Assembly (NCBI RefSeq): GCF_000026545.1
Contig: NC_011601.1
Reading direction: 5' to 3' (one strand)
DNA length: 64,000 nt
Source: Escherichia coli O127:H6 str. E2348/69
GTDB lineage: Bacteria > Pseudomonadota > Gammaproteobacteria > Enterobacterales > Enterobacteriaceae
In this document: positions 11,444 to 12,779 of the stretch, one piece after another
Layout of the letters: each line of letters opens with the position of its first letter
How positions within the stretch are numbered: position 1 is the first letter of the stretch
Notes under the pieces: generated by a model
The model's database searches: none
Told to the model about the DNA's origin: nothing
What the model saw: only the letters and a program-made list of their open reading frames with translations
Position numbers and translations under genes: made by a program

Positions 11444-12061
11444 TTATTTAGCAAAATACCGATAGTGCCCCACCATCCGCCAGCTAAACAGTACATCTTC
11501 TTCCTGCGCGCCTGCGCCAATGTTATGTATCACCAGCGGCGTACCGTCGCGGGCGAAGCCATCTGACACCACCCCAATATGTGCCAGCCCGTTATCTAAT
11601 CGCCAGGAGACAATATCGCCCGCTTGATAGTCACCGGGGGTCTTGCTGGTGGGGCGTGTTTTATCGTGGCGGGTAAACCAGGTTTCCAGATTAGGCACCC
11701 GACGGTGATCGATGTTGCTGTCCGGGCGCTTTAACTGCCATTTTTGCGGGTACTCAGCAAAATTCTTCGCCATATCTTCGTGAACCAGTTTCTGCAAATC
11801 GACCTTCTGGCTGCGCAATGCTCGGATCACCACATCAGAACAAACACCGCGTTCTTGCGGGACATCACCGCCAGGATAGGTAAGCCGCACATACGCCGGA
11901 TCGTAAAATAGCGTGCTGCCGATTTGCTGTCTGGCACCGTCCGCGATGGCAAGGTTGGTGTTGGCCTGGATTTGTACCACGGTTGGTTGAATGGCGGGAG
12001 ATTTTAAGGAGTAACTGGTAAATACCGTCAGAAGACTGAACAACGCCAGTGAAGCTTTCAT
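11444..12061 (-). CDS. yijF: DUF1287-family protein
   Basis: ORF 11444..12160; start set at ATG 12059-12061 (MKASLALFSLLTVFTSYSL... signal peptide), 205 aa; in the K-12 yijF position. Confidence 0.85.
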   Translation of the reverse strand: MKASLALFSLLTVFTSYSLKSPAIQPTVVQIQANTNLAIADGARQQIGSTLFYDPAYVRLTYPGGDVPQERGVCSDVVIRALRSQKVDLQKLVHEDMAKNFAEYPQKWQLKRPDSNIDHRRVPNLETWFTRHDKTRPTSKTPGDYQAGDIVSWRLDNGLAHIGVVSDGFARDGTPLVIHNIGAGAQEEDVLFSWRMVGHYRYFAK

Positions 12062-12257
12062 CTGTTTCGTCCGTGAAAAAATATTCACAGATTCGACCTT
12101 CAGGGCTAACGATTGTTCTGTGGAGAAAATGTCCAGAAGCGGATAAAAAAAACCGAACAAGGTGGAAGTTTCAGATTACTGGCACAGCGTGCCGGATACG
12201 GCGTGATGAACTGCACCCCAAATGTTGGACATAATCTGACATCTGAAGGTGCAGTTT

Positions 12258-12779
12258 ATGAAACATTCATTTGAAGTAAAACTTGCCGCTGTAAATCATT
12301 ACCTGGCTGGTCATGCAGGCATCATTTCTACGGCAAAACTCTTTCAACTTTCTCACACCAGCCTCTCACACTGGATTAATCTTTTTCTTCTTCACGGTCC
12401 TCGGGCACTGGATTGCAGACACAAGCGTAGCTATTCTCCTGAAGATAAACTTTGCGTGGTTCTTTATGCTCTCGGGCATTCTGAGTCTCTACCCCGGGTA
12501 GCTGCCCGGTTTAACATTCCCAGCCACAACACGGTTAAAAACTGGATAAAAGGCTACCGCAAATCTGGTAATGAGGCCTTTATCAGGTGCAGGAAGGAGA
12601 AAAGCATGACCCGTTCTGATGATACCCATGAAAACGAGGCAAACATGACGCCGGAAGAGATGAAGAATGAGCTGCGTTATCTTCGCGCAGAAAATGCATA
12701 TCTGAAAGCCATGCAGGAGCATCTTCTGGAAAAAAAGCGCCAGGAGCTGGAGAAAAAACGAAAGTCATCCAGAGCCTGA
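12258..12779 (+). CDS. IS3-family transposase OrfA (HTH, leucine-zipper region)
   Basis: ORF 12249..12779 (ATG at 12258: MKHSFEVKLAAVNHYL...); ends just after the A AAA AAG slippery heptamer; charged coiled-coil-like C-terminus typical of IS3 OrfA. Confidence 0.8.
   Translation: MKHSFEVKLAAVNHYLAGHAGIISTAKLFQLSHTSLSHWINLFLLHGPRALDCRHKRSYSPEDKLCVVLYALGHSESLPRVAARFNIPSHNTVKNWIKGYRKSGNEAFIRCRKEKSMTRSDDTHENEANMTPEEMKNELRYLRAENAYLKAMQEHLLEKKRQELEKKRKSSRA

What the first reader, a model, noticed from the sequence alone, without database searches (positions are those of the whole stretch)
11444..12260. IS left end lies 146 bp upstream of the yijF start codon
The outer IS begins at 12207 and yijF (minus strand) starts at 12061, so the insertion replaces most of the native upstream region of yijF. 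yijF expression may therefore be altered, either disrupted or driven by an outward-reading promoter from the IS end.
Basis: inference. Interest (0 to 1): 0.25.

Follow-up and report, generated by a model that had tools for sequence, protein, structure and literature searches.

The report
IS1397 in a repeat upstream of yijF
A known mobile element (IS1397, itself interrupted by a second element, ISEc21) has landed in its usual target, a repeated palindrome between the genes gldA and yijF of an EPEC E2348/69-type E. coli, and it leaves the conserved promoter region next to yijF intact, so this is an ordinary insertion.

Summary
The coordinates are correct. yijF (205 aa, DUF1287) starts at 12061 on the minus strand. 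The outer IS spans 12207-15012, which leaves 145 bp between them.

The outer element is IS1397 (IS3 family). It has 25-nt inverted repeats and a 4-bp duplication (GTGA), and it sits in the loop of a Y-type REP palindrome, its documented target. It carries a nested ISEc21 (13322-14695).

Nothing was replaced. Removing the IS and one duplication copy restores the 272-bp yijF-gldA spacer found without an IS-sized interruption in 4589 of 5426 complete E. coli genomes.

The retained 145 bp contain the only block conserved in all alleles compared (-114 to -1). They also contain the equivalent of the yijF transcription start mapped 26 nt upstream of the start codon in EHEC EDL933. That start has sigma-E-like elements, partly conserved in Salmonella and Pseudocitrobacter.

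What the IS moves 2.8 kb away is the RegulonDB K-12 start at -207 and any read-through from gldA.

No convincing outward promoter exists in the IS end.

At least three independent IS1397 insertions occupy this same palindrome in other strains.

Verdict: a real, already-understood kind of event, with its effect on yijF untested. Interest is low.

The parts
11444..12061 (-). yijF coding sequence (205 aa, DUF1287, signal-peptide-like N-terminus); ATG at 12061
   Evidence: the same start is annotated in RefSeq
12062..12206 (-). Native yijF upstream DNA retained between the start codon and the IS (145 bp)
12062..12175 (-). Proximal block (-114 to -1), conserved in every E. coli allele compared; all DNA distal to it is polymorphic
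   Evidence: alignment of 8 alleles; partial conservation in Salmonella and Pseudocitrobacter
12086..12086 (-). Equivalent of the yijF transcription start mapped 26 nt upstream of the start codon in EHEC EDL933 (the window is 1 nt shorter here, so -25)
   Evidence: PMC10469882 Table S5 sheet 3; mapped by sequence
12092..12119 (-). Sigma-E-like promoter elements for the proximal start: AGAACAA (-35-like), a 16-nt spacer, GGTCGAA (-10-like), then 5 nt to the start
   Evidence: 1 match in the window, 0.13 expected, pattern chosen post hoc; consensus from PMC1312014; GGTCAAAT/AGTCAAAT conserved in other genera. Inference, not validated
12190..12206 (.). Left half of the split Y-type REP palindrome (TGCCGGATACGGCGTGA); duplication copy GTGA at 12203-12206
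   Evidence: (I12)
12207..13321 (+). IS1397 left part (1115 bp): left inverted repeat 12207-12231, orfA 12258-12779, A7G slippery site 12730-12737, orfB N-terminal part up to the second catalytic Asp codon
12253..12280 (-). Weak outward-facing promoter-like match (TTTACT-16-TAAACT) inside the IS left end; not statistically distinguishable from background
   Evidence: 7.8 bits, 99.97th percentile of the window background; not reported by the stricter scan
13322..14695 (+). Nested ISEc21 (IS110 family, 1374 bp, no target duplication): 5' non-coding region 13322-13602, transposase gene 13603-14679
   Evidence: target and seekRNA mechanism published in PMC11187229
14696..15012 (+). IS1397 right part (317 bp), with the right inverted repeat at 14988-15012
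15013..15034 (.). Right half of the split Y-type REP palindrome (GTGAACGCCTTATCCGGCCTAC); duplication copy GTGA at 15013-15016
15070..15099 (.). Second REP (Z2-like) of the BIME; it holds the equivalent (15076, minus strand) of the K-12 RegulonDB yijF start at -207
15110..15136 (-). Strong hairpin directly after the gldA stop codon, with no U-tract
15144..16247 (-). gldA, the upstream neighbour on the yijF strand (last gene of ptsA-fsaB-gldA)

Best explanation
This is a routine REP-targeted insertion of IS1397 that is close to neutral for yijF's own promoter.

Shown: IS1397 integrated into the loop of the Y-type palindromic unit of the BIME in the gldA-yijF spacer. It made a 4-bp duplication and deleted nothing. 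ISEc21 later inserted into the IS1397 transposase gene, at the codon for the second catalytic Asp.

Inferred: yijF is still transcribed from its conserved proximal promoter. The start lies about 25-26 nt upstream of the ATG, the elements are sigma-E-like, and all of them sit at least 60 bp from the IS end.

Inferred: what yijF loses is transcription arriving from upstream, namely the weak distal start inside the Z2 REP and any read-through from ptsA-fsaB-gldA. Such transcripts would now have to cross 2.8 kb of IS DNA in the antisense direction. The expected net effect is no change or a modest decrease in yijF mRNA, not activation.
For: Identity and borders:
- Inverted repeats, GTGA duplication and RefSeq naming as IS1397.
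- The two IS1397 halves are 100% identical to the intact copy at this locus in LT827011.

Target:
- Removing the IS restores TGCCGGATACGGCGTGAACGCCTTATCCGGCCTAC, which folds as a hairpin.
- IS1397 is documented to insert into REPs (PMC1525189).
- Another IS1397 copy, at yjbB-pepE, is also in a REP.

Empty site:
- The reconstructed spacer is collinear in 4589 of 5426 genomes, with a best match of 99.7%.

Conservation of the retained region:
- -114 to -1 is conserved in all alleles.
- Distal DNA is a BIME, an unrelated repeat, an IS621 or an IS1397, depending on the strain.
- The gene order gldA-yijF and the motifs GGTC(A/G)AAT and CTTCACGGACGA persist in Salmonella and Pseudocitrobacter.

Transcription start:
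- The EDL933 Cappable-seq start is 26 nt upstream of yijF.
- Its architecture (spacer 16, discriminator 5, purine start) fits the sigma-E model of PMC1312014.

No promoter-like site was found in the IS end.
Against: - No expression data exist for this strain.
- RegulonDB v10.5 lists the K-12 yijF start at -207, not -26. If that is the main promoter, the IS displaces it.
- The proximal start was mapped in EDL933, not in E2348/69. The window differs there (GAATAT against GACTCT just after the start).
- The sigma-E reading is a post hoc pattern match. The -35 is imperfect, and the pattern reached at least one match in 13 of 100 shuffles. The term yijF was not found in the searchable text of the sigma-E regulon paper.
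- No canonical terminator follows gldA, so native read-through could be substantial.
Confidence: 0.7

Rival explanations
1. Polar uncoupling. Most yijF transcription normally comes from upstream, either from the distal start at -207 inside the Z2 REP or from read-through of the ptsA-fsaB-gldA operon. The 2.8-kb IS, whose genes run opposite to yijF, would then strongly reduce yijF expression.
For: - RegulonDB v10.5 places the K-12 yijF start 207 nt upstream. This maps to window 15076, beyond the IS.
- A weak TTGAAC-19-TACGCT match sits at the right distance.
- No canonical intrinsic terminator follows gldA, only hairpins without U-tracts.
- Two terminator-like hairpins lie on the minus strand inside the IS.
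- In two IS-bearing strains yijF carries a nonsense mutation (Q32*), which is compatible with the gene being dispensable.
Against: - EDL933 Cappable-seq was run in eight conditions with a 250-nt search window. It reports only the -26 start, not -207.
- The distal region is replaced by unrelated sequence in natural alleles, and it is not conserved in Salmonella or Pseudocitrobacter.
- The -207 position lies inside a REP stem, a plausible RNA processing or protection site rather than a promoter (inference).
Confidence: 0.2
2. Activation. An outward-reading promoter in the IS1397 left end (candidate TTTACT-16-TAAACT, 12280-12253, minus strand), or a hybrid promoter at the junction, transcribes yijF.
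For: It is the best-scoring minus-strand sigma-70 match within 12040-12420 in a relaxed weight-matrix scan (7.8 bits). Nothing terminator-like lies between it and yijF. Outward promoters are known for other IS families (established knowledge).
Against: - The score is at background frequency, about 1 per 700 nt per strand.
- It has 8 of 12 consensus matches, so the stricter scan reports nothing.
- In IS3-family elements the outward -35 is classically in the right end, whereas the left end faces yijF here (from memory).
- No junction-spanning match was found.
Confidence: 0.07

Closest known systems
IS1397 (IS3 family) insertions into palindromic units of BIMEs in E. coli (Bachellier, Clement, Wilde and co-workers; summarised in PMC1525189)
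   Same: Same element as named by RefSeq. It has TG...CA inverted repeats, two frames with an A7G slippery site, an rve-type DDE domain, a 3-4 bp duplication, and insertion in the central loop of a REP.
   Different: This copy is inactivated by a nested ISEc21. This particular REP has been hit at least three separate times in different lineages (duplications GTGA, TGA and GAAC), always in the same orientation.
[quoted passage not shown]
   Same: 1374 bp with no duplication. It is inserted at TCCACAG(C/T)GAT^CA(A/G)GG, in the same orientation as the host transposase gene. It has DEDD_Tnp_IS110 and Transposase_20 domains and a 281-nt upstream non-coding region.
   Different: No functional difference. 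This copy is absent from the same locus in the three complete E2348/69-lineage assemblies searched, and it differs at 2 positions from two other E2348/69 copies.
IS621 (IS110 family) insertion into REP sequences
   Same: It also targets REPs. Strain 10159 carries an IS621 in this same yijF-gldA BIME.
   Different: It belongs to a different family, uses a different mechanism, and is not present in the window.
Gene activation by outward or hybrid promoters at IS ends (IS1, IS2, IS3, IS5, IS10 and others)
   Same: An IS end lies within 150 bp of a start codon, which is the geometry in which such activation occurs.
   Different: No promoter-like site passes a standard consensus scan at this end, and yijF keeps its own conserved proximal promoter region.

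Membership tests
IS1397 / IS3 family | Terminal inverted repeats beginning TG and ending CA | tested here: met
   12207-12231 and 14988-15012, 25 nt, 84% complementary
IS1397 / IS3 family | orfA (helix-turn-helix) and orfB (rve DDE domain) joined by a programmed -1 frameshift | tested here: met
   HTH_28 and HTH_Tnp_1 in orfA; HTH_21, rve, rve_2 and rve_3 in the two orfB pieces. A7G lies at 12730-12737. RefSeq notes a 'programmed frameshift' in the intact copies.
IS1397 / IS3 family | Short (3-4 bp) target duplication | tested here: met
   GTGA on both sides; TGA and GAAC in other strains
IS1397 / IS3 family | Sequence identity to the reference IS1397 | tested here: inconclusive
   The match is only to RefSeq copies named 'IS3-like element IS1397 family' (100%).
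IS1397 / IS3 family | Insertion into the loop of a REP/PU | tested here: met
   The empty site restores a 34-nt palindrome. Target preference is cited from PMC1525189.
ISEc21 / IS110 family | DEDD transposase with an IS110 C-terminal domain, no inverted repeats, no duplication | tested here: met
   PF01548 and PF02371. The IS1397 halves abut exactly, 1115 + 317 = 1432 bp.
ISEc21 / IS110 family | Target at the second Asp codon of the IS3-family DDE, in fixed orientation | tested here: met
   Junctions in four loci agree with PMC11187229.
ISEc21 / IS110 family | Functional seekRNA in the 5' non-coding region | not tested
   The 281-nt leader is present. No Rfam family matched it. It was not folded or compared with the published seekRNA.
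IS-borne outward promoter driving a neighbouring gene | Promoter-like -35 and -10 reading out of the IS end, or a hybrid across the junction | tested here: not met
   No sites in 11900-12500. There is only a background-level relaxed match at 12280-12253.
IS-borne outward promoter driving a neighbouring gene | Transcripts that start in the IS and extend into the gene | not testable with these tools
   This needs RNA 5' end mapping in the strain.
Sigma-E-dependent promoter (for the proximal yijF start) | GGAACTT, about 16 nt, TCAAA, 5-6 nt, purine start | tested here: inconclusive
   AGAACAA-16-(GG)TCGAA-5-G; the -10 is good and the -35 has 4 of 7 matches. GGTCAAAT occurs in Pseudocitrobacter and AGTCAAAT in Salmonella. 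Dependence on RpoE is untested.

The most novel reading that the evidence does not exclude
The REP in the yijF-gldA spacer is hit repeatedly: at least three independent IS1397 insertions, all in one orientation, plus an IS621 in the neighbouring REP. On the novel reading this happens not only because of target preference but also because the insertion is selected. It would be selected for changing yijF expression, either by insulating a sigma-E-type envelope-stress promoter from gldA-operon transcription or by supplying a weak outward promoter from the IS left end.
Probability: 0.05. Interest if true: 0.3.

Novelty: already known. Interest (0 to 1): 0.1.

Why it matters
It matters little. The case illustrates why REP-targeting insertion sequences are tolerated. 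They land in polymorphic repeat DNA at the 3' side of one gene, and here that leaves the neighbour's conserved promoter block untouched.

It may be useful for annotating E2348/69-type genomes. The nested ISEc21 at this locus is absent from the three complete E2348/69-lineage assemblies searched, so it may serve as a stock or lineage marker.

The one mildly new lead is that the uncharacterised exported protein YijF may have a sigma-E-type promoter.

Tried and rejected
Searches that gave nothing:
- Four genome-wide K-12 transcript-mapping papers were checked for a yijF start site (SMRT-Cappable-seq, Rend-seq annotation, Cappable-seq, Conway et al.). Their supplements were either not held or held nothing for yijF.
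- The primary IS1397 papers (PMC94167, PMC169884) and PMC4288677, an id recalled from memory for the Thomason et al. transcription-start study, are not held.
- The sigma-E regulon paper has no held supplements.
- The standard sigma-70 and terminator consensus scans found nothing in 11900-12500 or 14900-15250. They found only chance-level sites inside the IS.
- An Rfam scan of 11300-15300 gave one sub-threshold hit, ES036 at E = 0.32, which I discarded.

Ideas considered and rejected:
- A deletion accompanying the insertion. The empty-site reconstruction is collinear with thousands of genomes.
- The longer TTG-initiated reading frame (12160) as the yijF start. RefSeq uses the ATG at 12061. The EDL933 start at -26 lies downstream of that TTG.
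- ISEc21 targeting of IS3-family genes as something new. It is already published.

I did not run the expensive scan of all bacterial genomes. One protein search plus three contig look-ups gave the cross-genus comparison instead.

Full report
**Observation.** The minus-strand reading frame 11444-12061 encodes a 205-aa protein with a signal-peptide-like N-terminus and a full-length DUF1287 match at E = 3e-73. RefSeq annotates the same ATG as the yijF start in E2348/69 and in K-12.

A 25-nt inverted repeat pairs 12207-12231 with 14988-15012. The left repeat occurs once in the window, against 0.00 expected by chance. The tetranucleotide GTGA is duplicated on both sides, at 12203-12206 and 15013-15016.

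**Identity of the elements.**
- Bases 11900-12500 are 100% identical to three E2348/69-lineage chromosomes, in which the element is annotated as an IS3-like IS1397 transposase gene with a programmed frameshift.
- The reading frames carry the expected helix-turn-helix and rve (DDE) domains. An A7G slippery run lies at 12730-12737.
- The outer element is 2806 bp rather than 1432 bp because a 1374-bp ISEc21 (IS110 family, PF01548 and PF02371) sits at 13322-14695.
- The two IS1397 pieces (1115 + 317 bp) abut exactly and are 100% identical to the uninterrupted copy at this locus in LT827011.
- None of the 11 genomes in the collection with IS1397 at this locus carries the nested ISEc21.

**Target.** Deleting the IS and one GTGA restores TGCCGGATACGGCGTGAACGCCTTATCCGGCCTAC, a REP palindrome that folds as a strong hairpin next to a second REP and a hairpin after the gldA stop.

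IS1397 is documented to insert specifically into REP sequences (PMC1525189). A second IS1397 copy, at yjbB-pepE in LT827011, is also split-REP flanked.

**Comparison with IS-free strains.** The reconstructed empty site (591-bp query) is present without an IS-sized interruption in 4589 of 5426 complete E. coli genomes. The best match is 99.7%, in strain A25. The reconstructed spacer is 272 bp, against 274 bp in K-12.

The IS displaces the distal 127 bp and gldA, and 53% of the spacer stays next to yijF.

Only 11 genomes have IS1397 at this junction. They show three junction types, with duplications GTGA, TGA and GAAC, all in the same orientation. That means at least three independent insertions into the same palindrome.

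**Which part of the spacer matters to yijF.** In an alignment of eight alleles, the block from -114 to -1 (window 12062-12175) is conserved in all of them. Everything distal varies:
- the usual two-REP BIME;
- an unrelated GC-rich repeat in NMBU-W10C18;
- an IS621 in strain 10159;
- IS1397 in the window and 11 other genomes.

In Salmonella and Pseudocitrobacter the order fsa-gldA-yijF is kept. The distal spacer is unalignable, but motifs within about 85 nt of the ATG persist, including GGTC(A/G)AAT and CTTCACGGACGA.

**Transcription starts.** Supplementary Table S5 of PMC10469882 compares start-codon-to-start-site distances. For yijF it gives 207 nt in K-12 (RegulonDB v10.5) and 26 nt in EHEC EDL933 (Cappable-seq, eight conditions, 250-nt search window).
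- The proximal start corresponds to about window 12086, 120 bp inside the retained DNA.
- The distal start corresponds to 15076 within the Z2-like REP, now beyond the IS.

Upstream of the proximal start lies AGAACAA-16 nt-GGTCGAA-5 nt-G. This fits the sigma-E architecture described in PMC1312014: GGAACTT, 16-nt spacer, (T/C)GGTCAAAA, 5-6-nt discriminator, purine start. The pattern occurs once in the window, against 0.13 expected. The pattern was chosen post hoc, the -35 is weak, and RpoE dependence is untested.

**Promoters in or at the IS.** The consensus scan finds no sigma-70-like site on either strand in 11900-12500. In the whole IS-bearing spacer it finds one site, 2 kb from yijF, which is below chance expectation. 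It also finds two minus-strand terminator-like hairpins.

A relaxed weight-matrix scan puts its best minus-strand hit inside the IS left end (TTTACT-16-TAAACT, 12280-12253). The score of 7.8 bits is reached about once per 700 nt per strand in this window. In the native allele no site scores better than 5.6 bits.

**Conclusion.** The most likely situation (about 0.7) is an ordinary, near-neutral REP-targeted insertion. yijF keeps its conserved proximal promoter and loses only transcription coming from upstream.

A strong polar decrease (about 0.2) would follow if the -207 start or gldA read-through were the main source. That reading is weakened by the absence of the distal start from the EDL933 data and by the dispensability of the distal DNA in natural alleles.

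Activation from the IS end (about 0.07) has no support beyond a background-level match.

None of these was tested by expression data. Both the kind of event and the nested ISEc21 targeting (PMC11187229) are already described.

Noticed in passing
window 13322-14695: ISEc21 (1374 bp, no duplication) is nested in IS1397 orfB, right after the second catalytic Asp codon (CACAGTGAT^CAAGG). It is absent from this locus in all 11 IS1397-bearing genomes searched, including three E2348/69-lineage assemblies. The same site and orientation are used in another IS1397 copy and in IS3-like elements elsewhere. The targeting is already published (PMC11187229).
   Followed up: yes
window 12190-12206 / 15013-15034; loci L002, L006-L011: The same REP loop carries at least three independent IS1397 insertions in other E. 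coli lineages (duplications GTGA, TGA and GAAC), always with the left end toward yijF.
   Followed up: yes
L013 (strain 10159) and L012 (NMBU-W10C18): The yijF-gldA spacer is a polymorphism hot spot. One strain has an IS621 in the BIME. Another has the whole BIME replaced by an unrelated GC-rich palindromic repeat, with homology resuming at -114 from the yijF ATG.
   Followed up: partly
L009 and L010 (strains 377323_2f and EC12): The two strains with the GAAC-type IS1397 junction also carry a nonsense mutation in yijF (Q32*), and RefSeq annotates a shortened gene there. Whether this is linked to the IS is unknown.
   Followed up: partly
window 12086-12119 (minus strand): The proximal yijF start has sigma-E-like elements (AGAACAA-16-GGTCGAA-5-G). 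The -10-like motif is conserved as GGTCAAAT/AGTCAAAT in Pseudocitrobacter and Salmonella. The term yijF was not found in the searchable text of the sigma-E regulon paper.
   Followed up: partly
L001 (NZ_CP059840.2) against L003 and the window: The IS1397 copy at this locus is 1429 bp in CP059840.2, but 1432 bp in LT827011 and in the window once ISEc21 is removed. This is a 3-bp difference between assemblies of the same strain lineage.
   Followed up: no
window 15035-15077 (+): A sub-threshold Rfam match to ES036 (CssrF) sRNA (22.9 bits against a gathering score of 37.6, E = 0.32) lies in the BIME linker and extends into the adjacent REP. It is probably chance.
   Followed up: no
window 10446-11417 and 8199-10418: The mechanical ORF list extends yijE and katG upstream of the RefSeq starts. 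RefSeq puts yijE at 10512-11417 and katG at 8238-10418.
   Followed up: no
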